IMG/VR virus record: IMGVR_UViG_3300006169_000032
Coordinates: 1 to 59,785 of that record
DNA from: a virus
Lineage: Duplodnaviria; Caudoviricetes
Direction: 5' to 3' (one strand)
DNA length: 59,785 nucleotides
Of the stretch, positions 22,169 through 39,752 are shown in pieces; within the stretch, counting starts at the first letter, position 1, and each line of letters begins with the position of its first letter. A program made the position numbers and the translations under genes. Below the pieces are notes generated by a model. The model made no database searches. It had not been told where the DNA came from and saw only the letters and a list, made by a program, of their open reading frames with translations.

Positions 22169-22559
22169 TGGGTGACTACCTCTGTAAATATTGCCAGGAC
22201 AAAGGATGCAAAATCTGTGAGCGACTGTGCGAAAAGTGCGGCAAGTGGGTGTTCAAAGGCGATGCCTTTCACTACCTAGACTGTAAGAAAGAGGGCCGGT
22301 AGTGAAGAGAATAATCTGCTACTTTAGAGGACACGACCTACGACCCTGGGAAATGATTACCAAGTGTGCCCGTTGCGGCCACATGTACGCGGGCGGCAAG
22401 CATATCAGCGTCTACGTCAGGTCCGTTGAGGGAAATATCAATATTCGTAAAAGGGGCCGGTAATGGAAGAAAGCAAAAACTAGACTGTGGATGTATGGTA
22501 CTCTGGCAAGCAACGCCTGTCTCATAACGAGTGGCCAGATAGTTAGCGTTACAGGTTAT

Positions 22560-23230
22560 AAGATTCATAACACTACAGGTTTTGTGATGATGTTACGATT
22601 GTGTTACGGACCATATACAAAAAGAAGCGATTTCTGTCCATTTGCTATACAAATTGCACAATGAAAGCCCAGAAATCGTAAAAATTGCACAATTCCCGCG
22701 TTTTTCCCAGACCTTTCGTAATTTGCCCCATGATACACTCTATGCTATACTACTAGTAGATGAGAAATAGGTGGGAATGGTAGTCGGCCTCTAAAGACCT
22801 ACCGCCCGGTGCTGATTACTCTCCGTGCAACAGCAATGGACCCGTAATTAGGTATCCTAGGAAGCAATGAACCAGACCGGGGAGCCGAGAAGGTGCTAAC
22901 TTAAGATATTTCCGCTTTTTTCAAAGCCCCTTCGTAATGCGCTTTGCGCTTGCTTACGCAAAGGGCTATTGGTGTTGTTTGCGTTCGAAGAATGTAAAAT
23001 TCCCGCGTTTCGTAAAGGGCTTTCGTAAAGAGGGTTGCGCAAAAAAAAAATCCCGCGTTTGCGGGAACCCTTTCGTAAAGGGCATTTGGGATTTCCCCTG
23101 GGGTTCGGGAAACTGGCATGTTCCGCTGTCAGCGGAAAACGGGGGTTGTCCGAAATGTCCGCTTCCCCCTGGGGGCGTTAAGCCCCCAGCCTTGATTCCT
23201 AAGAATCAAGGCCAGAGACTTTCGATGAAT
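22560..23230. repeat. Non-coding repeat-rich switch region, candidate genome end/terminal-repeat boundary
   Basis: AAATTGCACAAT x2 (22651, 22682), AATTCCCGCGTTT (22691, 22998, variant 23049), several TTCGTAA, A10 tract 23041-23050; convergence of + and - gene blocks. Confidence 0.6.
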
Positions 23231-24190
23231 CTAGATAGCCCTCACAAGTTCAAGAGCCTGAGCACGGAACGTGGCGGTTGCACCGTCCAGACCCATACCG
23301 GCCATTGCGAAGTTCTCCAGACCATTCTCAGTGTTCTGAATGGTGCGACCCCACTGGTTGCGCTCAACAAGAGCCTGAAGCGCACCGAACGCGGTCCCGC
23401 GAACCGGGGCGTTGGGCTGGCCCTTCCACGCCTCCGAGTACAGTTCCATGTTGTTGTCCCACTTGGTCTGAGCACCCTTCTTGTTCTCCTTCGGGCGCTC
23501 ACCCATCAGGCTACCGACAATCTCGAAAAACTTCTTGTCGGTGCACTTCTTCTGGAACAGGGCGTTGGACTCAGCCTCCAGGGCGTCAACCCAGGCGTTC
23601 GTCTCCTTCCACGCCAGGCGCAGCGCACGAATGCGGTCCTGAACCGTGAGAGTGTGACGAATCTTGACGGTATCCGTCAGACCCTTCTTCATGAACCTGA
23701 ACTGGTTGAAGCAACCCAGACGCAGGGCGTCACGACCGAGCACGAAGGCACCGGAGCCGTCATGCGTGGTGATGACCGAAATGGACGGCTTGATTTCGTC
23801 AGCCGCACCCTTCGGGTCGATGATGATGGTACGGCCCACGTCAGCCTGACCGTACACAATCTTACCGCCCTTGAAAGAACCAGCGGCGAACCACTTGGGC
23901 GAAAGTTCGTCCACCAGGCCGAACGCCTGCTCATTCTGGACCTCGCCATACCGCTCACCGTGAATGCCGAGACGGTCCAGACCGCCATCGAACGGGTTGG
24001 TGCGAATGGCCTCAAAAGCCTTCGTGGACGTGCGAGCGTCCGTGACAATCTCACGGAGACGGACGTCCCACTTGGCGAGATTTGCGAGGCGAAGCATCTC
24101 CGCGCTCGTGGTGACCTCGTGGTCAAACACGGTGCCGCGAATGAAGGCGGCAGGCTGGCGGGATGCGAAGGTGGTGAGAGAACGAGACAT
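23231..24190 (-). CDS. DUF932-family protein
   Basis: ERY..VQNE.AF, AGSF.GG, THDGS, RL.C.N, IRHT, RGTAFGALQA.E motifs. Confidence 0.85.
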   Translation of the reverse strand: MSRSLTTFASRQPAAFIRGTVFDHEVTTSAEMLRLANLAKWDVRLREIVTDARTSTKAFEAIRTNPFDGGLDRLGIHGERYGEVQNEQAFGLVDELSPKWFAAGSFKGGKIVYGQADVGRTIIIDPKGAADEIKPSISVITTHDGSGAFVLGRDALRLGCFNQFRFMKKGLTDTVKIRHTLTVQDRIRALRLAWKETNAWVDALEAESNALFQKKCTDKKFFEIVGSLMGERPKENKKGAQTKWDNNMELYSEAWKGQPNAPVRGTAFGALQALVERNQWGRTIQNTENGLENFAMAGMGLDGATATFRAQALELVRAI

Positions 24191-24220
24191 TGAAACTCCT
24201 ATCGAACGGTTGATACAACG

Positions 24221-24250
24221 AGTATAGCATGAGTCGGAGAGTCGTGTCAA
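24221..24250 (-). promoter_or_regulatory. Sigma70-type promoter
   Basis: TTGACA-18-TATACT on minus strand. Confidence 0.8.
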
Positions 24251-24323
24251 GTAAAGAGTCTGGGGTGTCTCAGTATGTGGACGCCCCCGGGGCGTCACCC
24301 TGAGTGACCAGGGTGACCCTCCG

Positions 24324-24467
24324 TCAGAGGTCTTCGACCCGACCGGCGAACCGACCATTCTCGTCACGCACGGTCAACTTGATAACCTGAATGCGCTCCG
24401 ACTTGACCCGGGAGTCACGACCATCGTTGTCGATTTCCCAAATCTCGAAACCAGCCTGAGTTGCCAT
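24324..24467 (-). CDS. Small hypothetical protein (47 aa)
   Basis: AAAGG RBS; RDENGRF motif. Confidence 0.5.
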   Translation of the reverse strand: MATQAGFEIWEIDNDGRDSRVKSERIQVIKLTVRDENGRFAGRVEDL

Positions 24468-24531
24468 TTCTGCCTTTCTGAGAGTGTTTTGAAAGAGGGG
24501 GAGGGGAGGGCCTACCGGCCCTCCCCTGGCA

Positions 24532-24888
24532 TCACGCCTGCGGCGTGGGGTCCGACAGAGCCGCGCCAACGGCGGTCAGGGCCTCAGCGGAGAGGCGACC
24601 ACGCTTGCCAGCGGACTCACCAGCGAGGCGACGGGCCTCCGCAACCGGAACCTGCACGGTGCGGGAGCGGGCCTTGCCAGCCTTGGTGTTCTTGGACACC
24701 TTGACGGCCACGGTGGACTCGTCCTTGGTGCCGAGAACGTACTTCTCACGCGGGTTGGCCGCGTGGAACGCCTTGACGGTCTCGGGGTGGAGACGGCCAC
24801 GGCTACCGGGGGTCGGAACACCCTCGGGCTTTGCGGAAGCGAACCACTCACGGACACGAGCGGCGGAAACGGTCTTACGAGCAGCCAT
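24532..24888 (-). CDS. Lsr2-like DNA-binding protein
   Basis: VREW...GSRGRLHPETVKAF and a second KRGRLSAEA motif; AAGGA RBS. Confidence 0.7.
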   Translation of the reverse strand: MAARKTVSAARVREWFASAKPEGVPTPGSRGRLHPETVKAFHAANPREKYVLGTKDESTVAVKVSKNTKAGKARSRTVQVPVAEARRLAGESAGKRGRLSAEALTAVGAALSDPTPQA

Positions 24889-24927
24889 GGTGTTTTCCTT
24901 TCGTTGGCTGTTTGACTTGATACGACT

Positions 24928-24957
24928 AGTATACGCTAGTGGGGCGGTAGTTGTCAA
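24928..24957 (-). promoter_or_regulatory. Sigma70-type promoter
   Basis: TTGACA-18-TATACT. Confidence 0.8.
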
Positions 24958-25103
24958 TAGGTTGGGGTAGACTTTACTTTAGGATGCTAGAATGCCTGCG
25001 AAGATAGCCCCGAAGACACTACCGGCCAAACCCCAAAGTAAGCCGACGAATGTCACCAGAACGATGATTGCGCCGACGAGCACGAGGATTATCCACAATT
25101 CCC

Positions 25104-25499
25104 TCATGAGTTGCGCTCTGCGCCGTCGTTGACGACAATCACAGGAACATAGCCCGATGTGTTGGACACAATGGCACGGTGCGACTCACACGGGCAATAG
25201 GTCAATGAAAGGCCGGTAAGGAAGCAGGCGGCACGCATCGACCCATATACCTTCTTGCCGTCTATCCAGGCAAAGACTTTGGCGTTGGGGCCATAGACAG
25301 GGGCTTGTGTTTCAATGACCCCAGACTCTACCGGCTTCGTGACAGTCTTCGTCTTGGGAGTTACAGACGGCTTGCGCTTTGGCGTACTGTCTGTATTGCC
25401 CATCGCGGCCCGGTAGGCTTCAGTGATGTGTCTCGGCATACGCCCACGTCCCGGCTTCACATCATAGCCGTTGGCGATTGCCCATTCCTTAGGAGTCAA
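25104..25499 (-). CDS. Protein with N-terminal Lsr2-like DNA-binding motif
   Basis: KEWAIANGYDVKPGRGRMPRHITEAY; TTG start after GGAGAGG. Confidence 0.7.
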   Translation of the reverse strand: MTPKEWAIANGYDVKPGRGRMPRHITEAYRAAMGNTDSTPKRKPSVTPKTKTVTKPVESGVIETQAPVYGPNAKVFAWIDGKKVYGSMRAACFLTGLSLTYCPCESHRAIVSNTSGYVPVIVVNDGAERNS

Positions 25500-25626
25500 G
25501 GGGCACAACCTCTCCACCGGGCGCGGAAACAAGGCCGGTATAGATTACGATTTCCCCGTCGTCAATGTGCTCATCAAACGTGGCGGTGGGGATGATAGCG
25601 AGTATCTGCTGGATTAGGTCGTCCAT
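25489..25626 (-). CDS. Small acidic protein (45 aa)
   Basis: ATG just after TACAAT -10 box. Confidence 0.55.
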   Translation of the reverse strand: MDDLIQQILAIIPTATFDEHIDDGEIVIYTGLVSAPGGEVVPLDS

Positions 25627-25699
25627 GGCTCTATTGTACCTCATTCTCGGTGATTTGGGAAGGGGCGTCTCAGTATGTGGACGCCCCCGGGGTGCCCGA

Positions 25700-26188
25700 T
25701 TAGGCCCTATTGATACCAAAGTCCACAATGTACCACATGCCGTCGAATTCGTCAATGATGACGTTGCAGGCCAGAATGTCCGAAAGGCCGGTAGCGTCCA
25801 TGAGGTCATTACACAACCTATTGGCACAAACAGGAAGGTGACACCGGCAGTCACCAGCGAAACACCATGGAGCCTCAATACCCCGAATGTACTCCATAAC
25901 AATGACAATGCCGTTGGCCGTGTCAATTCGTGCCATGTCAGGCACAGCGAAGTCATGGGGGAGGCTCATCTGGGAGACACGAAGCCAGTTGTCATACTCG
26001 GCCTTTTGCTGACTGGCAAAGTCAATGTCACAGTTGACCTTGTATACCAGCCCGTCCGGCCCGAGATAGGCGACGCGGGTGCCACCGACACCCACAATCT
26101 CAAAATCCTCAACCTCGGGAGGTTCTAGCCTATCTTGTGCCAGTGCGACACGCTCAGCGAGGGCAATCATGTCTGTCGTTATCTCCAT
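25700..26188 (-). CDS. Minimal protein-kinase-like protein
   Basis: GVGGTRVAY Gly loop, VYKV lysine, alphaC Glu, VMEYI hinge, DILACNV catalytic loop, IVDFG. Confidence 0.75.
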   Translation of the reverse strand: MEITTDMIALAERVALAQDRLEPPEVEDFEIVGVGGTRVAYLGPDGLVYKVNCDIDFASQQKAEYDNWLRVSQMSLPHDFAVPDMARIDTANGIVIVMEYIRGIEAPWCFAGDCRCHLPVCANRLCNDLMDATGLSDILACNVIIDEFDGMWYIVDFGINRA

Positions 26189-26293
26189 ACAAGTATGGTA
26201 CCGCGCCTTTACCATCCATGTCTAGAGTTAAGAAGGTAAAGAGAAGGTAAAGCCCCAGGGGCGTCACGCTCCGTAATGGAGCGTGACCCACCG

Positions 26294-26542
26294 TCAATCA
26301 GGACAATGATAAACGTGTTCTACATATTGCCCGTAGACACGCCTGCCCATATAACGATAGTGGCCCAACTTTCTGGCCTCATTTGCCTGTGCAGGGTCGA
26401 ATTCATAGGACCCGGTATCGTCATAGACTGTGGCTATTTCGATAATGTCCCGACAATCACCAAAGGCCGGGAGTGAGTTCCCGGCCCCTGTGATGCTCCT
26501 AACGGTATCTCTACCGCCGAAATTGAGCAAATCAAACATCAT
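26294..26542 (-). CDS. Hypothetical protein
   Basis: Abuts upstream gene. Confidence 0.55.
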   Translation of the reverse strand: MMFDLLNFGGRDTVRSITGAGNSLPAFGDCRDIIEIATVYDDTGSYEFDPAQANEARKLGHYRYMGRRVYGQYVEHVYHCPD

Positions 26543-27295
26543 TCACCTTTTCTTCACCGAGAACAGAACGTCCCCGCGACCGTCAATGCAAATGCCACAA
26601 CGACCACATGCAGAACCCTTTTCCGTGATAAGCGGAATGCGCTTTCCATTCTCGGGACAAGGATATGACTTTCGGGCGGTATCAATGATGGTATCCCGAG
26701 CCTCAGCAAATGTGTCTGCTACCGTCGCAATGTTGACTCCATTGTAGCACATTGCGACCTCGTTTGCAAGGGCAATGTTTACCGGGTCAGCGGAGAGGTA
26801 AACGGTCAGATTCTCAGCCTTTGAAATGACCGGAATAACGTTCAATTCAGGGGTAAAGGAACGGGTGTAAGCCCAGAATTGCACGTCAGGAAAGAGGTTG
26901 ATTGTGTCAACCCACGCCTGCGCATAGTCCAGGGAATAGAAGTCGCCATCCCAATGAATGCGGAAATACTGCTCGGAAATGGGAAGGCCGCGCTTTTGAC
27001 AGTCACGAACAAAGTCCTGGACCATTTCGATAAGCAGGGCACGCATCGCCGGAATACCGCCCAGATAATCCGCGTAAAGAATCTGCTCAAAGTTGGAAGT
27101 GAGGACATTGCGCACGCCCTTGTAAATCTTTTCCAACTTGCCAGCATAGCAAATGCGCTCACAGAATGAGGTTGCACCAGGACATGCAAAAGCCTTTCCG
27201 GCCGGTAGGCCAAAAGAATTGGCAATCTTAGCCGTCTTACCATTAGGGCTAGGGAGGTTTGTCACCTTGCGGTCTGCTGAGCGTGTGAGAGTCAT
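26543..27295 (-). CDS. Gp88-like protein (radical-SAM-like Cys motif)
   Basis: FGLPAG..CPGAT.FC...CYA, FRIHWDGDFYS, FWAYTRS, C..C..C C-terminus. Confidence 0.8.
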   Translation of the reverse strand: MTLTRSADRKVTNLPSPNGKTAKIANSFGLPAGKAFACPGATSFCERICYAGKLEKIYKGVRNVLTSNFEQILYADYLGGIPAMRALLIEMVQDFVRDCQKRGLPISEQYFRIHWDGDFYSLDYAQAWVDTINLFPDVQFWAYTRSFTPELNVIPVISKAENLTVYLSADPVNIALANEVAMCYNGVNIATVADTFAEARDTIIDTARKSYPCPENGKRIPLITEKGSACGRCGICIDGRGDVLFSVKKR

Positions 27296-27527
27296 GTGTC
27301 TATTCTAGGGTATCGTAACCCATGTGTCAAGGGGTGTCTCAGTATTTGGACACCCCCGGGGTGTCCGGTTTAGGCCGGTTCGAACATTCTCCTACCCTGC
27401 TCCAGAAAATCCCTCTCTTCAGGGAAAATGTTGGCACGAATGCACAGGAAGCCATATTCGTCAAAATCCCAGGTCATGTTCGGGAACTGACGCTGAACTT
27501 CCATCAGTCGGGCTACAATGTGCTCTC

Positions 27528-27917
27528 TCACTGGTTGCTCCTGAGGTAGTAGAAATCACGGCCAACGGCGTAGAGGAAATCCGTTCGCTCTACCGGCTCG
27601 CCTGTCTTGTGGTCCTGAAAATAACCCTTCTCGAAATGATAGGTTACCTTCCGCATATCCTTTCGGACACGAAAACTGGGCGGTAGTTGGGTTGGTTGCT
27701 GGTCAATCAACTCCCCTATTGCCCAAGCATGTACGTTACGAACCCCCTCAGCCCTAGCACGCTTAACGCCTGAATTATGGACAACAAACTCCACATCAGA
27801 AAGCACAACTGTTCCAGCATAGTAGGCTCTACCGCCCTTTCTCATGGGTGTGACCGAAATGCATTCCTCGACCCCGCTGGTCACCTTGTTGCGGTGAGGA
27901 TGAATCTTGACTCTCAT
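27528..27917 (-). CDS. Hypothetical protein
   Basis: 129-aa ORF, RNVHAW motif. Confidence 0.65.
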   Translation of the reverse strand: MRVKIHPHRNKVTSGVEECISVTPMRKGGRAYYAGTVVLSDVEFVVHNSGVKRARAEGVRNVHAWAIGELIDQQPTQLPPSFRVRKDMRKVTYHFEKGYFQDHKTGEPVERTDFLYAVGRDFYYLRSNQ

Positions 27918-28093
27918 CGGGTGTAAACCACAACTTCTCTGTTGATGGAATCATATTCGACTCGGACTGGCTTACCCTGTCCACCCTGAAACCTCACCGG
28001 GCACGTTGCCGCAGACGGGTTTTTGGTGATAAGGTACGACAGGGCTGACGAGAGGCCGACAGCCGTGCCGCCGGTAGTTGTTGTTTGTTTCAT
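27914..28093 (-). CDS. Hypothetical protein
   Basis: ATGA coupling on both sides. Confidence 0.55.
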   Translation of the reverse strand: MKQTTTTGGTAVGLSSALSYLITKNPSAATCPVRFQGGQGKPVRVEYDSINREVVVYTR

Positions 28094-28317
28094 GATGTCC
28101 AGTCCGTTATCCGAAGAATGGTGTCTGAGGCTTGGAGAAATCCATGGAGCATGAGCCCGTTTCCAGTAACAAGGTCGTACCAAGAACCCAATTCCTGACT
28201 ATACCACTCTCCGTTAGGAGAAGCGATTGCCAGTACATACAAAGTCCTGTGGTCAGCAACAATTTGTGCCTTCGCCTGGTCACCCGTCATCGGCCCTTCG
28301 TGCTTGTTGAGATTCAT
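28090..28317 (-). CDS. Hypothetical protein (leaderless)
   Basis: ATG 6 nt after TTGACA-18-TACCAT promoter. Confidence 0.6.
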   Translation of the reverse strand: MNLNKHEGPMTGDQAKAQIVADHRTLYVLAIASPNGEWYSQELGSWYDLVTGNGLMLHGFLQASDTILRITDWTS

Positions 28318-28735
28318 AGAACAATGGTAACATCGTCTTGTGTCTGGTGTCAAGGGTTGTCTCAGTATGTGAGAACCCCGGGGGAAATCAACAGAACAGG
28401 GGATGCTCGCCAGCAATCACACGTCGTACGCCATGCGACCAACGCCACTCCAAGCAGGGAAAGGATGCAACTTGTGTTCCACGTAATTATATGCCAGAGG
28501 TCCGGTTACAGTGACTTCGCGCCCGCTCACATGCCTAGGTCATGAATCTTGCGCAGCGGATAGGTTTGTCCACACGCCAACTTACAGTGATTTGTTGTGA
28601 GAACCACAGAGGTTCCATGCATCACCGGGAGTTTCGTTATCCCCTGTTCTGTTGTACCAACAGTATAGCATGGAGTCTCCACGCTCCACAAGAGGGAATC
28701 GTAAACCTCTCACTATGTGAGACACCCCCCGGGGG

Positions 28736-29086
28736 CTATGCGGGACAAGAAAGAGTTTGCGAATACTCCCTAAGTTCATCGGTGACGTGATACCACACAT
28801 CGAATTCTTTTGTTGTTGCTTCAGACTGAGGGGGACCGAAGTAACGTGCAAGGGCATTACCAGGGTTCTCACCCTTTTCTACCGCCTCGGCCACCCAATT
28901 CTCAATGAGGGCAGTAGGGTCCTCGATAACCTGGAATGCATGACGGTGGTATGTGTCATCGACATATACAGGATAGTTGATTCCGTCAATTTCTGTGCCA
29001 TTGACACGAGGGAAGGAGATACCCTGGTACCGCCAGCCATCGGGCTGCTCGCCGCTGTCTGTCATCTTCTCAGACCACTTGAACAT
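28736..29086 (-). CDS. Hypothetical acidic protein
   Basis: GAGG RBS; stop abuts CCCCCCGGGGG. Confidence 0.65.
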   Translation of the reverse strand: MFKWSEKMTDSGEQPDGWRYQGISFPRVNGTEIDGINYPVYVDDTYHRHAFQVIEDPTALIENWVAEAVEKGENPGNALARYFGPPQSEATTKEFDVWYHVTDELREYSQTLSCPA

Positions 29087-29469
29087 CAGAACCTCTTTAC
29101 TAGATAGAAGTCGGTAAAGGAGGACCAGTTTTTGCTGTACCGCCGCGAGCGCCACTCACCCCGTTGGGTGATTTCCTCCCAGGACAACTCCACGTAGTGT
29201 GTTCCCTTGTCGAGAAAGAATCTCATTCACCAGTCCCTATCCCTGCTACCGGCTTTGGGCCGCTTGTACGCCTTGCCACTCGGAATCGGGGCGGTAGCGT
29301 TGGAGCGACGAATTTCCATCATCGCATCATACAACGCCCTGTTACGAGCCTTGGGATTCTGCTTTCTCTTACTCATGTCTCCATGATACCTAGTCTATAT
29401 CGTAAAGTCAATGCTTAGAAGAGGGTTTTACTTGTTCTTTACTTTCCCCCGGGGTGTCCGCATAGCGGA

Positions 29470-29754
29470 CTAGAGAGCCTCCCAATACATGACATGCTCA
29501 ACAGGGAATCGCAGAATGCGAGAGTCGAAAGTCTCAAAAGTCAGGAAACCACGCTCAACGCAAATGGCGTCAACGTCCACACCCTCAACGGTGATATTGT
29601 CACCATTGAAGAAATTGACCTCAACGTCCAGCAGAGGCTTGTCAGCCTCATCGAATGCATCCTCAGCCATGACCTTAGCCTGTGCAGCCTCAGCCTCCAC
29701 AACGTGAAGGCACTCGTTCTCACAACCGAGAGGACAGTTCATCATTATCCCCAA
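29470..29754 (-). CDS. Hypothetical acidic protein
   Basis: ORF in cassette; start uncertain. Confidence 0.6.
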   Translation of the reverse strand: MGIMMNCPLGCENECLHVVEAEAAQAKVMAEDAFDEADKPLLDVEVNFFNGDNITVEGVDVDAICVERGFLTFETFDSRILRFPVEHVMYWEAL

Positions 29755-29987
29755 AGTTCACGGCGCTGAGGCTGAGCATCCTCACGGACAATCATGCCCT
29801 GCCGCACCGCCAGGTCATTGTCGTATCCGAGCACCCTCCCGATGTTCATGGAAATCTTGTCGGTGATATCCCGAACCTCGGAGCGACCACCGACGCGACG
29901 GAGAATGCCCTGTAGAGCACAAGCCTCGGTCTCGGTGAGCACGATTGTAACCTCAGACTCACGCTTGACAATGGACACCTTGCTCAT
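29745..29987 (-). CDS. Hypothetical protein
   Basis: GGAGG RBS, ATGA overlap. Confidence 0.6.
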   Translation of the reverse strand: MSKVSIVKRESEVTIVLTETEACALQGILRRVGGRSEVRDITDKISMNIGRVLGYDNDLAVRQGMIVREDAQPQRRELWG

Positions 29988-30238
29988 ACCAGAGCCTCCG
30001 CACCGTCGAGCACCTGAATGTGGAACTCGTGACGAGGACGGGGAGCGTGCCCGGTCCACAGAACGTGACGCTGATGTGCGTCATCGGAAAGGCGAAGTTG
30101 ACGCTTGGTGAAGCGAACAGCACCCTTCTTCTTAAGGTTCACGAGAACCTTGGTGTCAACAGCCTCGGTGACGAGACCGTCGCGGCCTGCCTCCACAACA
30201 CGGAGCAGGAGGGCCTTCTGAGGGGCGGTAAGGGCCAT
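29984..30238 (-). CDS. Hypothetical protein, possible winged-helix
   Basis: AAGGA RBS; LT..QK.LL...L.KKG.V pattern. Confidence 0.6.
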   Translation of the reverse strand: MALTAPQKALLLRVVEAGRDGLVTEAVDTKVLVNLKKKGAVRFTKRQLRLSDDAHQRHVLWTGHAPRPRHEFHIQVLDGAEALV

Positions 30239-30359
30239 GGTGGCTTCCTTTCATCGACTGATACCTCTATTATGCCTGACACTACCTGAGATTGCAAGGG
30301 TTTGAAAGTAAAGACACGGAGAGTTAGGTAAACTACTCTCTGTGAGCCCCCGGGGGGAA

Positions 30360-30890
30360 AGTAAAATGATAACCGCTATCACCTATATTTTGTAAACCTA
30401 CCGCATTCTTGGTAGGACGTTCTTACGGTTATCTTAGGGGAGTGCGTGGCATTCTAGGTGTCTCCCGCAAGTTGTGTTACCGGCCCGAAGATGGTTCTCC
30501 GGTAGTAGTGCCGGGACTCGCGTCCTGGGCCGGTAAGCATTGGAAGGTAACGAGGTGATGAGTCTCGTCGGCAAGGGTAATCATCCCCTAAGCATCCCCT
30601 GTCTAGTCGGTTCCTGCCTGCCATTTTGGGGGCACCCGTTTTAAGTTGCGTTCCCTTTGGCCTTCCGCCGTATTGTGCAAGCGGATATCTACTCTTTATA
30701 GCCGTCTTAAGGCAACCATCTTCGGATTTAGGGCATTGGGATTCAAACCCGACCCTTACCGTCTCTGAGCGCGATATCTCTTACCTATGGCTCGGCTTGC
30801 AAGTCTCTTTTGAATTATGATGCTGCCGGTAGTGGAAGGGCCACCGAACCCCGGGCGAGTTTCGAGCCTTCGCCCTTGCCTCTCGACTAT
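30360..30890 (-). ncRNA. Candidate large structured non-coding RNA (~530 nt)
   Basis: Own promoter TTGACA-18-TAGACT (30926-30897), no minus-strand ORF of 60 aa or more, many perfect stems incl. 12-bp 30485-30496/30714-30725 and 10-bp 30477-30486/30527-30536. Confidence 0.65.
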
Positions 30891-30908
30891 GACTCTAGTC
30901 TACCACGG

Positions 30909-31271
30909 CTAGAGGCCGTCTGTCAACCTTGTCTTATATTCTGGACACTTGAATGCTACTGCTGCACCAATCAGAGTACCGGCCACCTTTGGCGGAAAGC
31001 CCTCGGAGTCATAGAGCAGGAAAACATCGGTGAACGTCTGTCCCTGGTCGAACAGCGAGCAGACCACTCGGGCGTTCTTGAAAAGCATCCTGTCTGGAAC
31101 ACTGTCTAGTTGTGGCGCTTCCTCCCTCAGCAGGCGGATATAGAGGTCACGCTTGCTCGGGCCGGTAGCCTGGGCGGTAGATTCCGTCTTATCCCCCGTA
31201 GGAACAGACAAACCACCAGTACAGCCCGTAAGGACAAAAAGGCTGACAAGAATGGCAAGTACAAACTTCAT
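30909..31271 (-). CDS. DUF732-like lipoprotein
   Basis: Lipobox LTGC; D.YI..LR...ARVVC..FDQG...AAVAFKCPEY. Confidence 0.7.
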   Translation of the reverse strand: MKFVLAILVSLFVLTGCTGGLSVPTGDKTESTAQATGPSKRDLYIRLLREEAPQLDSVPDRMLFKNARVVCSLFDQGQTFTDVFLLYDSEGFPPKVAGTLIGAAVAFKCPEYKTRLTDGL

Positions 31272-31278
31272 GGTTCTC

Positions 31279-31542
31279 CTAGTCGATGTAGACGTGGACT
31301 GTTACAAGGCGGTCAAGGTGACGCTCGACCCTACCGCCAAAATGTCCGACTCCATGGTCGGCCAGGTCGATAAGTTGCGTGTCGGTGAGGTTGCAAGCAA
31401 CATAGTTGAGCAGGCGCAGCGTGTGAATGTTCCTGCCGAGGTGACGGGTCATACCGAGCCGGTCGACTACCGGGCCGGTAGCCATCATATTTTGGTAGTC
31501 ACGAACACGCCTTGCGTTGTACTCTTCGAAAGTCTCACTCAT
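31279..31542 (-). CDS. Hypothetical protein (leaderless)
   Basis: ATG 7 nt after TTGACT-17-TATACT. Confidence 0.6.
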   Translation of the reverse strand: MSETFEEYNARRVRDYQNMMATGPVVDRLGMTRHLGRNIHTLRLLNYVACNLTDTQLIDLADHGVGHFGGRVERHLDRLVTVHVYID

Positions 31543-31766
31543 ACCTATGAGTATAGGCGTACTGAGGGGGAAAGTCAATGGGCTCAAGGTAAAGAGCAGG
31601 TAAAACCCCCTGGGGCACTACTCTGAGCAAAACCCCGTTACTGTGAGTATATATCCCGGGTGAATGTCAATCGGGCACAATAGCGCCCGGTCGCTCTCCT
31701 GTAGCGCCGCCTTGATAAGGTCAATGACGATATCGGGGCCTTCGAAGGTCACATCAATCTGTTTCA

Positions 31767-31976
31767 TCAGAAATCTCCGTGGTACGGGTTGGGGTCGTCG
31801 TCATACATACCCTGCTCGACAGGGTTCCAGAAGTCGTACGGCTCGTCATCGTAGTAGTCGTAGAAATGCTCAGGCTCGTCATAGACGGGCTCGTCGGGCT
31901 CGCCAACGAACATCACAGGAGCGTACTCCATGGGCAGAATCTCGTCGTGGTACAGGTCACCAAATGTGTCTTCCAT
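31767..31976 (-). CDS. Very acidic Asp/Glu/Tyr-rich small protein
   Basis: 69 aa with no Lys/Arg. Confidence 0.6.
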   Translation of the reverse strand: MEDTFGDLYHDEILPMEYAPVMFVGEPDEPVYDEPEHFYDYYDDEPYDFWNPVEQGMYDDDPNPYHGDF

Positions 31977-32052
31977 GCTTCTAATATACTTCGTACCGGC
32001 CCCAATTGCAAGAGGGAGAAGGTAAAAGAAAGGTAAAATGCCCCCAGGGGCG

Positions 32053-32199
32053 CTACCGTCCGTGTTGATACCGTGACCCACCGTTACGGCGATTGGTCAT
32101 ACCCTCACTCCGCTGGTGGACATACTTTGTCTCTTTGCGGAACTTGCGGCCCTTGCGTGGACGCATGGGCTCACGTGTGGTATCAGTAAAGCGGGCCAT
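32053..32199 (-). CDS. Very basic small protein (48 aa)
   Basis: GAGG RBS; stop abuts CCCCCAGGGG. Confidence 0.5.
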   Translation of the reverse strand: MARFTDTTREPMRPRKGRKFRKETKYVHQRSEGMTNRRNGGSRYQHGR

Positions 32200-32359
32200 C
32201 GGTTTCCTCGAAATCAACCTCCAGGGAGGCCATGTGGTCATCCTCGATGTACCGGGACTCGACACCACGGTCGTAGCCGTCGTAGTATTCATCGGAGGCG
32301 TAGTCGGCCTGCTCCCGACCCTCATAGCCGTCACGGTAGCCAATCATCAAATCGTTCAT
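32183..32359 (-). CDS. Acidic Tyr-rich small protein (58 aa)
   Basis: Translated by hand (MNDLMIGYRDGYEG...); ATG just after TTGACT-17-TAACCT. Confidence 0.6.
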   Translation of the reverse strand: MNDLMIGYRDGYEGREQADYASDEYYDGYDRGVESRYIEDDHMASLEVDFEETDGPLY

Positions 32360-32433
32360 ACCTCTAGGTTAGTGCCCCCAGACGTAAAAGTCAATAGCCG
32401 AAGGTAAAAGGAAGGTAAAGCCCCCAGGGGCGA

Positions 32434-32697
32434 CTACTCTCCGTAGTCACACCCTTCGAAGGGGTTGGGAATCTCTGTGTAGCAAATGTCGCAAACCCAC
32501 TGGCCATCGCGCCCGCACGAGGCGTCACCGTGGTCACAGTCCTCAGGGTCCACGTCATACTCGGGCTCGTCGTAGCCGTAGAAAAGGTCGGGGTCGTTCG
32601 CACGCTCCCAGGCGTAGTAGTCATCCAACTCAGCCTCAAAGCGGAGTTCGGCAGCGGTCATGAAAGGCTCACCGGCCTCGTTCATCCAATTGCTCAT
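32434..32697 (-). CDS. Acidic small protein with Cys cluster
   Basis: ATG just after TTGACA-18-TACGGT; stop next to CCCCCAGGGG. Confidence 0.65.
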   Translation of the reverse strand: MSNWMNEAGEPFMTAAELRFEAELDDYYAWERANDPDLFYGYDEPEYDVDPEDCDHGDASCGRDGQWVCDICYTEIPNPFEGCDYGE

Positions 32698-32850
32698 GGG
32701 TCCACCGTACCATACGTAATGCCCCAATGTCAAGGGGATTTGGTAAAATCCCCTGGGGGTGTCCGATTTGGACACCTTTCGGCTAATTGGTCTTGTCACA
32801 CCACCCAAAGTGCTCGAAAACAGCACCGCACTCAGCGCACTCGTGCATGA

Positions 32851-33042
32851 TTACCTCCAAACCAGGCAGTTGCGGGAAATGCCGTGGACAGGCTGACCAC
32901 AACGGATGCAGCGGTCTTCGTGCTCAGCCGGGTCGGCGTAGAACTCGTTAAGGTACCACAGCATGTCGTCGTCGGAAACGGACATTTCGGACTCCTCGCG
33001 CAGGTAGGTCGGGTCGGTCTGGGCTGCCTCGGTGATGTTCAT
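32851..33042 (-). CDS. Acidic small protein
   Basis: ORF in cassette; CIRC motif. Confidence 0.55.
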   Translation of the reverse strand: MNITEAAQTDPTYLREESEMSVSDDDMLWYLNEFYADPAEHEDRCIRCGQPVHGISRNCLVWR

Positions 33043-33239
33043 GAGAACATCATAATTCCAATACCGGCCTTCGTCAAGGACAAATCGGACAGAGAAAAGT
33101 AAAGAGAAGGTAAAACCCCCAGGGGGACTACTCAGAGTAACGACATTTGACGGTCAGTCATTGAAAATCTCCGAAATCTCTAGAAGTGCCTGCTCTGCCA
33201 CAAGCATGACACTACCGGCCAGAATCAGCAGAATGTCCA

Positions 33240-33428
33240 TTACGGCAAACGCTCCATCTTCCTCGTGATTTCTTCGATGAGACGCTCCATATTTCCATAG
33301 TGCAACGGGGTCATGTGACGCTCACCAATGACAATTGCATCCTGCAATGCTTGACGGGTTTCGAAAAGGAGCCGGTATTCCACGGTCCTTTCGTCATTCC
33401 AAGTAACCATTACAGAGCCTTCTTCCAA
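33240..33428 (-). CDS. Hypothetical protein
   Basis: ORF in cassette. Confidence 0.45.
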   Translation of the reverse strand: MEEGSVMVTWNDERTVEYRLLFETRQALQDAIVIGERHMTPLHYGNMERLIEEITRKMERLP

Positions 33429-33806
33429 GACTGGCGCTCACGACGCTTGGCCGCACGCCGGTCACGCTTGCGCGTGTCGTGGCTACACGAAATGGTCTTA
33501 CCAAGCATCTTCATCAGAACACACTCTCCCAACAGCACTCACACTGGTCCATGCAGAACACGCACAGGTCGCCTCCACATTCCGGACATACCGCCATCTT
33601 CTCGACGCACGTGTGGCAGAAGCGGGCGGTCCATTCGGTGATTCTGTAGTAAAGGCTCATACTCTTAAGATACGCCTGTCTAGGGTAAAAGTCAATAGCC
33701 TACCGGCAACTTTACCTTTTCTTTACTTTCCCCAGGGGTGTGACAGAGAGTAGTCGAAAGGTAACTTTACAAGGACCAGATAAAGTGCCCTAAGACGTGT
33801 AAGACG

Positions 33807-34106
33807 CTACCAGAGAACAGTCTCCCCTCTAGCGAGCATGTCCGCCTTCACCCCAGCGAACAGACCGAGAACATCTTGACCTAATCTCGGGTCGGTAGCG
33901 GGATTAATTCCCCTATTACGGAGTTCATCTTCCACCCTGGAAAGAATCATGATGGAAACAAAGGCGGTAGCGAAGTTTGGAGACTCCCCATTCTTAGGTA
34001 CCGCCTCCATCTGCTCAGGAGTCATGTCCAGAATGCGAAGAATGTTGTTCTTCTGGTTACGGGCAACCCAGATAAGCCGGGTGGTGCTCTTTTCGGTCCA
34101 ACTCAT
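33807..34106 (-). CDS. Hypothetical protein
   Basis: ATGA overlap. Confidence 0.6.
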   Translation of the reverse strand: MSWTEKSTTRLIWVARNQKNNILRILDMTPEQMEAVPKNGESPNFATAFVSIMILSRVEDELRNRGINPATDPRLGQDVLGLFAGVKADMLARGETVLW

Positions 34107-34306
34107 GCTAGTGGGTCCGTTCCATCCTCGATAATGCATACTGACGTTGGGTACCAGCCCTGGCAGTGAGACATGAGGTAGGCTGTCTGTTCAGCCTCCA
34201 GACCATCTACCGCCTCAACGATGGCACGGTGCCAGTCCATAGCGAGAATGCCCTCATGCAGCCCATCATGGGTGGAGAGCATCACATCGACTACGAATCT
34301 TGCCAT
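34103..34306 (-). CDS. Hypothetical protein (leaderless)
   Basis: ATG 6 nt after TTGACA-17-TAGTCT. Confidence 0.6.
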   Translation of the reverse strand: MARFVVDVMLSTHDGLHEGILAMDWHRAIVEAVDGLEAEQTAYLMSHCQGWYPTSVCIIEDGTDPLA

Positions 34307-34560
34307 ACTTACAGACTACCGTCCCTTGCGAGGCTTGTCAAGCCTGTCGAAGAAAAAGTTTCCGAATGCGAGAGCGAGAAAGAACGAGGCAGCCATGAGG
34401 CCAGGCTCAGTGAGCCCGATGCAGAACAGACCGGCGATGATGAAGTAAGCAATTGTCCAACCCATGACTAAAGCATAACTCGTAACCGCGTGGAAGTCAA
34501 TGGCTACCGCCCGACTTTACCGGGATTTTACTTTCCCCAGGGGTGCCCGAAATGTCCGAT

Positions 34561-34782
34561 TCAGGCACCCATAACGTCTACACGCTCAGCGGGGTCAAGA
34601 TTGTAGTCAACAGAATCACCGTCAATTTCCGAAACAGCGGAAACGAAAACGAATTCACCCTCGTCCACCTGAGACTTGACACGCAGAATGTCATAGGGAT
34701 GAAGGTCGTTCTCCTGAATGGTAATCAAATCGCCATCCTCGATTTCATCGGCGTAGATTGTGTCAATGACGTTCATTTTCAC
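34561..34782 (-). CDS. Acidic hypothetical protein
   Basis: GTGA overlap. Confidence 0.6.
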   Translation of the reverse strand: MKMNVIDTIYADEIEDGDLITIQENDLHPYDILRVKSQVDEGEFVFVSAVSEIDGDSVDYNLDPAERVDVMGA

Positions 34783-35006
34783 CTTACATTCATGATGAAG
34801 TGCTGGAAGACCATGTCGTTTGTTTCGAAGAATTCAACCGAGGACCACGGTAAAAGGGTGATTTCCCGGCCCTCATTTTCGAAGAAGTAGACGCCCTTGT
34901 GATTGATGTTGAGGCCGGTACGTCCCTGGTCATCCTCTCTACCCTCAAAATAGTAGAATCGGGGTCCGGCTTGGAACCGGGCGAAACCGCTTTGCTTGTC
35001 AGCCAT
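34779..35006 (-). CDS. Hypothetical protein
   Basis: GAGG RBS. Confidence 0.6.
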   Translation of the reverse strand: MADKQSGFARFQAGPRFYYFEGREDDQGRTGLNINHKGVYFFENEGREITLLPWSSVEFFETNDMVFQHFIMNVR

Positions 35007-35007
35007 T

Positions 35008-35238
35008 TCAGACCTCAACAATCTGCTGTGCAAGGTGCGAGTAGCGAGCCACCGTGCGACCCTTGAAAATGTGCTTCACGTCAACACTGACGATGCGGCC
35101 CTTGATACGGTTGTCAATGAGCCAACCACGAACCATGTCGTAGTCGGGCATGGTGTCGAAGGGAGCCCGGTAGGAAAAGTTGGGAAGCGGCCCGAACACG
35201 TCCGAACCCCCGTCAAGGGTGATAGTAGCACTGAACAT
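35008..35238 (-). CDS. Hypothetical protein
   Basis: AAGGAG RBS after promoter. Confidence 0.65.
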   Translation of the reverse strand: MFSATITLDGGSDVFGPLPNFSYRAPFDTMPDYDMVRGWLIDNRIKGRIVSVDVKHIFKGRTVARYSHLAQQIVEV

Positions 35239-35560
35239 GGTTTCTCCTTATCTTCTAAGTACACCTTAACATGACTACCGCCCGAAAGTCAATGGGTTCT
35301 GGGGGACTTTACCAGTTCTTTACTTCCCCTGGGGATGCCCGAAATGTCGGGCCTGTCCGATTCAGAGAATCGGCTTGGAACCGTCCTCGCAGCGGGTGGA
35401 ACCGGCGAGCAGAACGCTCACGTGGGACCAAACCGGAACGGTGAGGGAACGCACGAGAACCTCGTGGCAGTTGGGACAGGTGGTCTCAGTCTGGAACATT
35501 TTGTTTCTCCTAACCTTCTACTTCTATTAAACACCCTACCGGCCCGGAAGTCAAGGGGTT

Positions 35561-35749
35561 TCAGGTAAAGTCTCGGTCCATGTCATCCCACGTGAGGGTT
35601 CCGTCCATGAATTCCTCCATAACGAAGCCCGTCCACTCAACCAACTCGTCAGCAGAGTACCCGTCCATCTCACCACGGAAGGCGCGGGTGGAGTACAGGG
35701 CCTTGGCGAAGGCGGCTGCTGTGCGGAGGTTCATCGTTTCTGTATTCAT
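35561..35749 (-). CDS. Hypothetical protein (leaderless)
   Basis: ATG 6 nt after TTGACA-17-TATAGT. Confidence 0.6.
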   Translation of the reverse strand: MNTETMNLRTAAAFAKALYSTRAFRGEMDGYSADELVEWTGFVMEEFMDGTLTWDDMDRDFT

Positions 35750-35789
35750 ACCTTCACTATAGGCCATAGTTCCCCGTGTGTCAAGGGCC

Positions 35790-36420
35790 GGTAGTAATCA
35801 CATGGTAAAATTCCCCGAGAAAATTCCCACGATTAGTAACCCCACGCGTAAGGGGACATTCGGTACAAAACGGACACCCCAGGGGTGGCGACATTCGTCG
35901 CAATTCCCGCGTTTCACCTATACCCCCGTAATGCGGGACATATACCCATATAGTAGGACATGTCGGACATGTCCGATTTATGCGGATAAAGCAGGATTGC
36001 ATGTGCCAGCACCTAGATACATGCATGGTGCAAGCAACTAGCCTGCTGGCACGGTACAGGCACGGTCTAGGCGTGGCATAGGCTGTAAGGCCGTGTATGG
36101 CGCTCTAACGGCTTTCTACGGTGTCCTAGGTACAATCACCCGCGCAGAATTTCTAGGCCGTTAGAAAGGCGCACATACGCGCCTACGCCTACGGCTCACC
36201 TATTACATGATTGTGATTCAGACACCATAGGGCAAAACCGGACATTTCGATATTTGCATGGTGCAAGCACAGTATCAGCATTTGAGATTTACGCCTGAAA
36301 AGGTAAAGGCACGGTTAAGGGAAGGTTAAGGGAAACGTCGTTATGTCCTCTAGTGTCCGATTTGTCCTGGTTTGCTATCTTGTGTCCTCTGTGCATAGTG
36401 GTGCTAGCACCACCCAAACA
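35790..36420. repeat. Non-coding repeat-rich region, candidate second terminal-repeat boundary
   Basis: AATTCCCGCGTTT 35902, TGCATGGTGCAAGCA x2 (36022, 36255), GGACAT/TGTCCG clusters. Confidence 0.55.
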
Positions 36421-36438
36421 CAACCGACGGAGGCGACC

Positions 36439-36876
36439 ATGATTTCTCAGGCTCACCTAGACGCAATCCCCACCATGCCTGGTTTCACGTCGGACCCTGG
36501 TGGCAGTGTGCGGGCGGCGGTGCGGCGGTACCTTTGGACCTATGCTGGCGGGCGGTGTGTCGTCTGTGGGCAGGCTACGCGCCTAGAGGCTAAGCCTACG
36601 GATGCCGACCGCGCAGAGGGTTGCCACGCGCTCCCCGCACCGGGACGTGGCGGGTACGTTGCACCCAACGTGTTCAATGGCTGTCGGAAATGCAACGAAA
36701 ACATGAAAGACCGGGACGTTCGGGGGCAAATCGGACAATTTGAACTTCCCCACCTGATTCCGGCATCCTGGCCGAAGCGGAAGGAACTGGTCGAAATGTA
36801 CGGAGCCGACAAATCGGACATGATGGACCACATCGCCCAAAGCAACGCAAAGGCACGCGAACTAGGGTGGATGTGA
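36439..36876 (+). CDS. HNH-like endonuclease
   Basis: GGAGG RBS; CVVC...CHALP...GG...N....CRKCN. Confidence 0.7.
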   Translation: MISQAHLDAIPTMPGFTSDPGGSVRAAVRRYLWTYAGGRCVVCGQATRLEAKPTDADRAEGCHALPAPGRGGYVAPNVFNGCRKCNENMKDRDVRGQIGQFELPHLIPASWPKRKELVEMYGADKSDMMDHIAQSNAKARELGWM

Positions 36877-36886
36877 CGAAATAGGA

Positions 36887-36913
36887 CAAAGGCCCCCGAA
36901 AGGGGGCTTTTGT
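36887..36913. terminator. Intrinsic terminator (possibly bidirectional)
   Basis: GC hairpin with GAAA loop and T tract between convergent genes. Confidence 0.7.
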
Positions 36914-37037
36914 CACGTATGGGGGCAAATATGGGCGCACTACTCAAAACGGACATTTGTTACATTTCGGACGTGTCATACATCAATACTCGCTACTTAC
37001 ATTTGTCATTCAAAATAAGTTACTTCTCGGTAACTTG

Positions 37038-39501: not shown

Positions 39502-39752
39502 TAGGAGTAGCACCCCGCTTCGCTACCGCGAAAAGACGAACGACGAAGGGGACGGACTGCGTAGACATTCCACCATCCGTTCTTTTGCTTTGACTTCAGC
39601 ACCATGGCCTTGCCATTCACGAAGAAATATTTGTAGGCGGGCGCATCCATGAGGCGAATTGCGGTTTCGAAACTACCGCAGGAATAGGCGAGATAGTGTG
39701 TCTCGTGACTAGGGACGTTCAAAGGGGTTGTCTTTCTTTCCGGTCTGCTCAT
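39501..39752 (-). CDS. Hypothetical protein
   Basis: ORF in operon. Confidence 0.45.
   Translation of the reverse strand: MSRPERKTTPLNVPSHETHYLAYSCGSFETAIRLMDAPAYKYFFVNGKAMVLKSKQKNGWWNVYAVRPLRRSSFRGSEAGCYS

What the first reader, a model, noticed from the sequence alone, without database searches (positions are those of the whole stretch)
30360..30890. Candidate novel ~530-nt pseudoknotted non-coding RNA occupying its own cassette
Seen: a minus-strand promoter (TTGACA 30926-30921, TAGACT 30902-30897) drives an ORF-poor stretch ending at the next core (30347). Perfect complements: 30485-30496/30714-30725 (12 bp), 30477-30486/30527-30536 (10 bp), 30570-30577/30873-30880 (8 bp), 30368-30375/30426-30433 (8 bp, enclosing hairpin 30397-30416). 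The 12-bp helix crosses both the 10-bp and the 30570/30873 helices, implying pseudoknots. A T-loop-like GGGTTTGAATCCC lies at 30750-30738. It lacks RNase P (GAGGAAAGTCC) and tmRNA end signatures. Inference: a large structured phage RNA, either a distant ROOL/GOLLD-type RNA or a new class.
Basis: partly seen in the sequence, partly recalled or inferred. Interest (0 to 1): 0.85.

Follow-up and report, generated by a model that had tools for sequence, protein, structure and literature searches.

The report
Orphan non-coding early phage cassette
A 670-base stretch without genes in an uncultured relative of large Streptomyces phages sits behind a convincing early promoter and is probably copied into a non-coding RNA, but nothing shows it to be a large, intricately folded RNA of a new class.

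Summary
The promoter is real by in-silico test: it ranks 12th of all positions in the window, and 13 sites score as high against 0.03 in simulated sequence. The stretch 30239-30908 is non-coding in all six frames.

The large pseudoknotted RNA is not supported.
- The whole transcript folds no better than shuffles (z -1.0). The 5' 345 nt give z -0.1; only the 3' 190 nt give z -3.0.
- The 10-bp helix is two inverted copies of an octamer (GGCCGGTA) found 54 times in the window.
- The 12-bp long-range helix has probability about 0 in the nested ensemble.
- The 3' helices form the end hairpin that most neighbouring cassettes also carry.

Rfam (including ROOL and GOLLD) and ARAGORN found nothing. No homologue turned up in known phages, 25 related IMG/VR records, metagenomes or 401 actinobacterial genomes, so covariation cannot be tested.

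Best reading: an orphan early non-coding transcription unit, or long 3' tail, ending in a hairpin module. It is analogous to the Pleft non-coding region of cluster A mycobacteriophages. A dead leaderless gene is the main rival.

The parts
30897..30926 (-). Early sigma-70-type promoter: -35 TTGACA (30926-30921), 18-nt spacer, extended -10 TG-N-TAGACT (30902-30897). It overlaps the stop codon of the upstream gene.
   Evidence: Consensus scan, 10 of 12 matches. Weight-matrix score 18.7, rank 12 in the window; 13 sites reach that score against 0.03 in simulations.
30888..30890 (-). Predicted transcription start. It reads ATA, 6 nt after the -10, at the position where 10 of 13 neighbouring promoters have the ATG of a leaderless gene.
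   Evidence: Read from the aligned cassette boundaries. The start site is inferred, not measured.
30546..30890 (-). 5' body of the predicted RNA (345 nt). It is non-coding and no more structured than random sequence. It holds the T-loop-like motif (30738-30750) and the 5' arm of the 12-bp complement (30714-30725).
   Evidence: z -0.11. Codon log-odds negative in all frames.
30475..30539 (-). Hairpin H1, a stem of about 14 bp built around two inverted copies of GGCCGGTA (30478-85 and 30528-35). Its loop holds the 3' arm of the 12-bp complement (30485-30496).
   Evidence: Base-pair probability 0.97; structure; octamer sites.
30368..30433 (-). Terminal hairpin of the cassette: 8-bp outer stem (30368-75/30426-33) enclosing the apical hairpin 30397-30416.
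   Evidence: Most other cassettes end in a comparable hairpin just before their core.
30358..30367 (-). U-rich tract AUUUUACUUU after the terminal hairpin. It is the likely 3' end and also one 'TTTAC' box.
   Evidence: Read from the sequence. The terminator scan did not call it because the loop is too long for its rule.
30347..30357 (.). Boundary palindrome ('core') CCCCCGGGGGG, one of 19 such cores, all lying between 23095 and 35885.
30269..30346 (-). Hairpin, TTTAC boxes and promoter (TTGCAA, 17 nt, CATAAT at 30297-30269) of the next gene.
   Evidence: rank 31.
30909..31271 (-). Upstream gene: 120-aa lipoprotein-like DUF732 protein. No boundary element separates it from the gap, so read-through transcripts should also cover the gap.
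   Evidence: PF05305 at 1e-06; phrog_658; core positions.
29984..30238 (-). Downstream gene, 84 aa, an orphan.
   Evidence: Codon score +0.35; no PHROG match; no relative in viral contigs.

Best explanation
The gap 30239-30908 is a non-coding early transcription unit in the terminal early arm of an uncultured relative of the cluster BE Streptomyces phages.

A strong promoter of the phage's own early class (30926-30897) should start an RNA at about 30890. That RNA runs about 530 nt on the minus strand to a terminal hairpin (30368-30433) and a U-rich tract (30358-30367), which abut the boundary palindrome (30347-30357). No boundary element follows the upstream DUF732 gene, so the same stretch is also the 3' tail of that two-gene operon.

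Only the last ~190 nt (hairpin H1, a small hairpin and the terminal hairpin) fold better than chance. I read these as a stabilising and terminating module. The first ~345 nt are unstructured.

The most likely working model is an early non-coding RNA or long 3' tail whose stable product is the 3' hairpin module. This is analogous to the ~500-bp non-coding region behind Pleft in mycobacteriophages L5, D29 and StarStuff. It is not a globally folded, pseudoknotted RNA.

Shown here: the promoter quality, the lack of coding capacity, the local hairpins and the absence of homologues. Inferred: the transcription start and end, the stability of a 3' fragment, and any function.
For: Promoter:
- It ranks 12th in the window. 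13 sites reach its score against 0.03 in simulations.
- It shares the -10 plus AGAG-type discriminator plus AT start context with its neighbours.

Non-coding:
- All six frames score negative.
- The two longest open stretches score -0.19 and -0.21 per codon. 19 real early genes score 0.06 to 0.47; 154 wrong-frame stretches average -0.15 (sd 0.18). GC1/2/3 is flat.
- None of the nine small ORFs submitted, nor the 108-codon open stretch, matched Pfam or PHROGs: nine ORFs against Pfam, three of them plus the open stretch against PHROGs.
- HMMER of the 108-codon stretch against 1.84 billion proteins returned only 2 tandem-repeat artefacts.

Structure:
- The 3' 190 nt give z -2.99, with 2 of 200 shuffles folding as well.
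- H1 has base-pair probability 0.97 and the apical hairpin 0.996.
- Most of the 17 cassette ends examined carry a hairpin before the core.

Context:
- Ribonucleotide reductase is 62-63% identical to cluster BE phages.
- The left arm of Jay2Jay is likewise made of small minus-strand genes.

Precedent:
- PMC5712189, passages read: an abundant stable non-coding RNA from a ~500-bp region behind the early promoter Pleft, with no ORF longer than about 30 codons.
Against: - There are no expression data of any kind.
- No homologue exists, so neither conservation nor covariation can show that the RNA matters. The stretch could be tolerated junk behind a promoter.
- ATA sits exactly where 10 of 13 neighbours have a leaderless ATG. 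A 44-codon open frame follows it and overlaps a 108-codon open frame. This fits a dead gene.
- The 12-bp perfect long-range complement occurred in 0 of 300 shuffles of the region, and this model does not explain it.
- The terminator scan did not call the 3' end.
- The longest ORF on the transcribed strand is 56 codons, longer than in the mycobacteriophage precedent.
Confidence: 0.5

Rival explanations
1. A dead gene cassette. It was once a leaderless small early gene like its neighbours. The start codon has become ATA and the frame is broken, while the promoter and the end hairpin remain.
For: - The cassette has the same anatomy as its coding neighbours.
- ATA stands at the position of the leaderless ATG in 10 of 13 neighbours.
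- The open frame 30890-30759 (44 codons) overlaps a 108-codon open stretch 30780-30457 in another frame. One frameshift would join about 144 codons.
Against: - Both open stretches score like wrong-frame sequence (-0.19 and -0.21; real genes score 0.06 or more).
- They lack the GC2 dip of real genes: 0.61 and 0.56 against 0.26-0.59.
- There is no protein homologue.
- Three leadered promoters (two in the training set, plus 24957) have ATC at the same position, so AT there may belong to the start site and not to a codon.
- The promoter still scores among the best in the window, which is unexpected for an old wreck.
Confidence: 0.2
2. One reading: a ~530-nt globally folded, pseudoknotted RNA, either a distant ROOL/GOLLD relative or a new class.
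For: - It has its own promoter and no ORF.
- Five perfect helices of 8 bp or more against 1.73 expected (P 0.023). A 12-bp helix occurred in 0 of 300 shuffles.
Against: - z -1.01 for the whole RNA and -0.11 for the 5' 345 nt.
- The 12-bp helix has probability 0.000 and the 30570/30873 helix 0.001 in the nested ensemble. Forcing either costs +5.7 kcal/mol. The ensemble cannot score pseudoknots.
- The 10-bp helix is a pair of genome-wide octamers.
- No match to ROOL (RF03087), GOLLD (RF02032) or any of 4227 Rfam families at E up to 10.
- No homologue, hence no covariation.
Confidence: 0.06
3. A DNA-level element and not an RNA: a regulatory spacer, a set of protein-binding sites, or a transcription-activated replication origin in the early arm.
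For: - The arm is full of DNA-level repeats: 19 palindromic cores, TTTAC/GTAAA boxes in both orientations, and the octamer GGSCGGTA 108 times in the window.
- The gap carries two full copies of the octamer and two partial ones.
- Perfect inverted repeats can be protein sites.
Against: - There are no iterons or tandem repeats beyond one 11-nt doublet.
- There is no AT-rich unwinding stretch: GC is 0.51-0.54, like the rest of the genome.
- There is no GC-skew turning point specific to the gap.
- The body of the gap has no second copy in the window.
Confidence: 0.1

Closest known systems
Non-coding region behind the early lytic promoter Pleft of cluster A mycobacteriophages L5, D29 and StarStuff (PMC5712189; passages read)
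   Same: An actinobacteriophage, an early sigma-70-type promoter near a genome end, about 500 bp transcribed without a convincing ORF, and poor sequence conservation.
   Different: There is no sequence likeness: blastn of the gap against 50,697 phage records found nothing. Expression, abundance and toxicity are shown there and untested here. Here the stretch also follows an operon with no terminator between them.
ROOL (RF03087) and GOLLD (RF02032), large structured RNAs often found in phages and prophages
   Same: Size class (ROOL model 574 positions), a phage setting and no ORF.
   Different: No covariance-model match at E up to 10. Folding stability of the whole stretch is ordinary (z -1.0). 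It is not next to tRNA genes; the nearest are 10 kb away.
tmRNA, including the two-piece (permuted) form; cluster BE phages carry one tmRNA (PMC5764925, abstract seen in the listing)
   Same: A T-loop-like hairpin GGG-UUUGAAU-CCC. ARAGORN at 80% of its thresholds calls a permuted tmRNA at 30288-30817.
   Different: - ARAGORN makes no call at default or 90% thresholds.
- The 80% setting also calls a tmRNA in 11 of 66 window tiles and 37 of 100 shuffles.
- There is no CCA end, the acceptor stem is mismatched, and the tag VRTSYQECGRFTKYR is not tag-like.
- No Rfam tmRNA match.
The neighbouring leaderless early gene cassettes of the same phage
   Same: The same promoter class, the same end hairpin and the same boundary core.
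   Different: No start codon at the transcript start (ATA) and no coding signal. No core or box element lies upstream of its promoter.

Membership tests
ROOL RNA (RF03087) | Match to the Rfam covariance model (574 positions, gathering score 99.1 bits) | tested here: not met
   No match at E up to 10 in the whole window or in 30150-31050 with lax filters. The tool's 14 control genomes did not ring either, so there was no positive control.
GOLLD RNA (RF02032) | Match to the Rfam covariance model (416 positions, gathering score 150 bits) | tested here: not met
   No match at E up to 10.
tmRNA (one-piece or permuted) | tRNA-like domain with T-arm, acceptor stem and CCA end, plus a tag reading frame; detection by ARAGORN or Rfam | tested here: not met
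   No call at default thresholds and no Rfam hit. The sub-threshold call is at noise level: 11 of 66 tiles and 37 of 100 shuffles.
tRNA or tRNA-like element | Cloverleaf with a canonical T-loop | tested here: not met
   ARAGORN and the Rfam tRNA model find only the two tRNA-Thr at 40.4 and 41.1 kb. The loop here reads TTTGAAT.
Any other curated RNA family (RNase P, introns, riboswitches, ribozymes, 6S and others) | Match to one of 4227 Rfam models | tested here: not met
   Only two chance-level hits at E 2-5, far below gathering score and outside the RNA body.
Early promoter class of this phage | TTGACx, 17-18 nt, TAnnnT, plus a discriminator like that of the neighbouring cassettes | tested here: met
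   Score 18.7, within the range of the 13 training promoters (15.1-20.4). Rank 12 in the window; 0.03 such sites expected.
Protein-coding gene | Open frame with the codon usage and GC1/2/3 pattern of the genome, or a homologue | tested here: not met
Globally structured RNA | Folding energy well below shuffles; covariation in helices | tested here: not met
   Energy: z -1.01 for the whole RNA and -0.11 for the 5' 345 nt. Covariation is not testable because no homologue was found.
Pleft-type early non-coding RNA of cluster A mycobacteriophages | Abundant stable RNA made from an early promoter over an ORF-free ~500 bp | not testable with these tools
   The promoter and the ORF-free stretch are met in silico. 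Abundance and stability need RNA data. Sequence likeness is absent.
Intrinsic terminator at the 3' end | GC-rich hairpin followed by a U run | tested here: inconclusive
   The hairpin 30368-30433 is followed by AUUUUACUUU. The outer stem has probability 0.22 in the full-length ensemble. The scan did not call it.

The most novel reading that the evidence does not exclude
The cassette encodes a functional early non-coding RNA of a family with no described relatives. It may be one of several RNA-only cassettes in the host-takeover arm of this phage lineage. The neighbouring 270-nt cassette 28385-28655, with a perfect 16-bp end-to-end stem, would be a second. The 12-bp long-range complement would then be a real tertiary or switching contact.
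Probability: 0.2. Interest if true: 0.55.

Novelty: new member of a known kind. Interest (0 to 1): 0.25.

Why it matters
If the RNA is made and acts, it would add an early, host-directed non-coding RNA to a group of large actinobacterial phages for which I know of none described (no literature search was aimed at this). It would also parallel the still unexplained abundant early RNA of mycobacteriophages L5 and D29. As it stands, it is an orphan non-coding stretch in one metagenomic contig with no relatives. Its main value is as an annotation (promoter, non-coding unit, end hairpin) and as a caution: helices built from a genome-wide octamer and from standard cassette-end hairpins can look like a designed RNA architecture.

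Tried and rejected
1. Homologue searches, all empty.
- blastn ('distant') of 30240-30930 against 50,697 phage records: no match.
- DNA search of 20 related IMG/VR records found through the portal protein: 6 of 20 had hits, and all were short with E 0.25 or more.
- Five more records found through the phrog_1392 neighbour. Two 18-nt hits in G021 lie near the syntenic gene but are not collinear. They scored E 0.25 and 0.66 on re-alignment. G021 shares only that one gene in the arm.
- nhmmer (E up to 10) and tblastx against six relatives of at least 94% completeness, 80 partial loci and Jay2Jay 1-41.9 kb: nhmmer found nothing and the best tblastx hit was E 0.57. nhmmer on loci L133-L186: nothing.
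- Both flanking proteins have no relative in viral contigs. The DUF732 protein finds only itself among 5.8 billion proteins.
- A scan of viral contigs for the box-plus-core motif gave 21 single hits, about what I estimate chance would give.
- A portal scan of metagenome contigs gave at most 60% identity, so there is no close relative.
- 401 Actinomycetota genomes: 30 had a hit at a per-genome E of 0.1 or less, about the number expected by chance (roughly 40). The best was 3e-4 per genome, a 55-nt match.

2. Sequencing runs: none was listed and no RNA holder was listed.

3. The permuted tmRNA called by ARAGORN at 80% thresholds was rejected as noise.

4. The Rfam hits CRISPR-DR36 (13.6 bits against 38) and U3 (13.3 against 34) are noise and lie outside the RNA body.

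5. Decayed gene. The HMMER hits P0003 and P0004 are tandem-repeat proteins whose weak match is multiplied 6-7 times, so they were rejected.

6. Small ORFs with a Shine-Dalgarno motif: none convincing (its first output line came from an indexing slip in my script and is ignored).

7. Trans-complementarity of the gap to the rest of the window: only the core element matched.

8. I first recalled RF01998 as GOLLD. The tool showed it to be group-II-D1D4-1 (best hit 16 bits at 57861-57928, below the cut-off). GOLLD is RF02032.

Full report
WHAT THE WINDOW IS. The window is a whole IMG/VR virus record of 59,785 bp, estimated 46% complete. Its ribonucleotide reductase is 62-63% identical to those of cluster BE Streptomyces phages such as Jay2Jay, Peebs and Coruscant. 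Cluster BE1 phages have genomes over 130 kb with about 11-kb direct terminal repeats, 43-48 tRNAs and one tmRNA (PMC5764925, abstract as listed). As in the left arm of Jay2Jay, window positions 23-41 kb hold many small minus-strand genes. Nineteen palindromic cores, CCCC(N0-2)GGGG, all lie between 23,095 and 35,885.

Read on the minus strand, each cassette boundary has the order: hairpin, core, TTTAC or GTAAA boxes, TTGACx, 17-18 nt, TAnnnT. In 10 of the 13 promoters I used as a training set, an ATG follows 6-7 nt after the -10, which marks leaderless genes. I infer that this block of about 12.8 kb is the early, host-takeover arm and perhaps the collapsed terminal repeat. That is inference only.

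THE OBSERVATION.

The promoter is the strongest part. A weight matrix built from the 13 neighbouring promoters, with the candidate excluded, gives it 18.7 bits, inside the training range of 15.1-20.4. That is rank 12 among all positions on both strands. Thirteen sites in the window score as high, against a mean of 0.03 in 60 Markov-1 simulated windows.

The stretch is truly non-coding.
- Codon log-odds are negative in all six frames from 30240 to 30900 and positive in both flanking genes.
- The two longest open stretches are 44 codons from the ATA at 30890 and 108 codons at 30780-30457. They score -0.19 and -0.21 per codon.
- Nineteen real early genes score 0.06-0.47 by leave-one-out. 154 wrong-frame open stretches average -0.15 (sd 0.18). 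The GC1/2/3 pattern of the two stretches is flat.
- Pfam and PHROGs find nothing.
- A full HMMER pass of the 108-residue translation over 1.84 billion proteins returns only two tandem-repeat artefacts.

IS IT A LARGE STRUCTURED RNA? The evidence says no.
- The 556-nt stretch folds at z -1.01 on the minus strand and +0.69 on the plus strand.
- Split in two, the 5' 345 nt give z -0.11. The 3' 190 nt give z -2.99, with 2 of 200 shuffles folding as well.
- In the partition function, hairpin H1 (around the 10-bp helix) has base-pair probability 0.97 and the apical hairpin 30397-30416 has 0.996.
- The 12-bp long-range helix has probability 0.000, the 30570/30873 helix 0.001 and the 30368/30426 stem 0.22.
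- Forcing either long-range helix costs 5.7 kcal/mol. Nested folding cannot score pseudoknots.

Perfect helices are somewhat enriched in the region. Five of 8 bp or more are seen, against 1.73 expected (P 0.023). A 12-mer occurred in 0 of 300 shuffles. Three facts weaken this.
- The 10-bp helix is two inverted copies of GGCCGGTA. This octamer occurs 54 times in the window against 1.3 expected. It is enriched in relatives too, and it makes other inverted repeats elsewhere in the window.
- The helices at 30368-30433 are the end hairpin that most cassettes carry before their core.
- The window as a whole holds five perfect inverted repeats of 12 bp or more within 300 nt, some inside genes.

KNOWN FAMILIES.
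- Rfam at gathering threshold finds only two tRNA-Thr 10 kb away.
- With lax filters and E up to 10, the region gives two noise hits.
- ROOL (RF03087) and GOLLD (RF02032) give no match at E up to 10.
- ARAGORN finds no tmRNA at default or 90% thresholds. At 80% it calls a permuted tmRNA at 30288-30817, but the same setting calls one in 11 of 66 window tiles and in 37 of 100 shuffles. The candidate also lacks a CCA end and a tag-like peptide.

HOMOLOGUES. None was found.
- Known phages: no match.
- 25 related IMG/VR records: chance-level hits only.
- nhmmer and tblastx against seven relatives of at least 94% completeness, together with partial loci: nothing.
- Viral contigs: the flanking proteins have no relatives, and the box-plus-core motif gave only single, chance-level hits.
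- The 5.8-billion-protein collection holds only the window's own copy of the flanking DUF732 protein.
- Metagenome contigs: portal identity at most 60%.
- 401 Actinomycetota genomes: chance-level hits only.

The closest relatives share 57% or less portal identity over full-length matches, and most lack the core architecture. G007 has a weaker version of it. Covariation, the test that could establish a structured RNA, therefore cannot be run. No sequencing run was listed.

WHAT IT MOST LIKELY IS. It is a promoter-driven, non-coding early transcription unit of about 530 nt. No boundary element follows the DUF732 gene, so it also forms the 3' tail of the upstream two-gene operon. It ends in a hairpin module and a U-rich tract next to the boundary core.

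The closest functional analogue I could document is the ~500-bp non-coding region behind Pleft in mycobacteriophages L5, D29 and StarStuff. That region yields the most abundant, stable early RNA and has no ORF above about 30 codons (PMC5712189, passages read). There is no sequence likeness to it.

The main rival is a dead leaderless gene. ATA stands where the neighbours have ATG, and two overlapping open frames would join into about 144 codons with one frameshift. The lack of any codon signal argues against a recent death, and the well-kept promoter argues against an old one. The AT at the start position is shared with leadered promoters that read ATC there. A DNA-level role cannot be excluded but has no specific support.

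VERDICT. The interpretation as a large pseudoknotted RNA or a ROOL/GOLLD relative is not supported. What remains is an orphan early non-coding unit of unknown function, of modest interest until RNA data or relatives appear.

Noticed in passing
whole window, e.g. 30478-30485 (-), 30528-30535 (+), 7551, 25786, 35786: The octamers GGCCGGTA and GGGCGGTA each occur 54 times (both strands pooled) in 59.8 kb, against about 1-2 expected. They are the most frequent octamers in the window. They lie in coding sequence, promoter spacers and terminator loops alike, and have no wider consensus. GGCCGGTA is also enriched in relatives: G005 62, G001 45, G007 35 and G004 23 copies, against 3-5 expected. The function is unknown. 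A paper search for the string found only primers and mycobacteriophage genome announcements (listing only).
   Followed up: partly
28385-28655 (-): A second ORF-poor cassette. After a TTGTGG, 18 nt, TATACT promoter, the predicted RNA begins with 16 nt (28654-28639) that pair perfectly with the 16 nt (28404-28389) just before the next core. This closes a ~270-nt RNA into a panhandle. The fold has z -2.10, and there is no Rfam match at E up to 10. The longest internal ORFs are 27-37 codons with no Shine-Dalgarno motif.
   Followed up: partly
23095-35885: Nineteen palindromic cores CCCC(N0-2)GGGG mark cassette boundaries. The flanking boxes occur as TTTAC(C/T)TT in some boundaries and as the reverse complement AAGTAAAG in others, at the same place relative to the core and promoter. 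Ten of 13 promoters put an ATG 6-7 nt after the -10 (leaderless genes). Relative G007 has a similar ATACCCCGGGGGTAT-plus-promoter element.
   Followed up: partly
35768-37037, 22169-23230, 21104-21629, 39183-39708: My crude gene caller left further long stretches without a scoring ORF. The stretch 22169-23230 lies where the gene strand switches and holds four ~41-nt repeats ending in TTTCGTAA (22681-23078). The caller also missed at least one real small gene (28090-28316), so these gaps need proper annotation.
   Followed up: no
40436-40508 and 41083-41155 (-): Two tRNA-Thr genes (anticodons GGT and CGT) flank a 158-aa ORF just upstream of the ribonucleotide reductase gene. Jay2Jay has a tRNA-Thr(CGT) next to an HNH endonuclease gene in the same arm.
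   Followed up: no
30909-31271 (-): The gene upstream of the gap encodes a 120-aa protein with a lipoprotein-type signal (MKFVLAILVSLFVLTGC) and a DUF732 domain. It has no relative sharing words in 5.8 billion proteins other than itself.
   Followed up: partly
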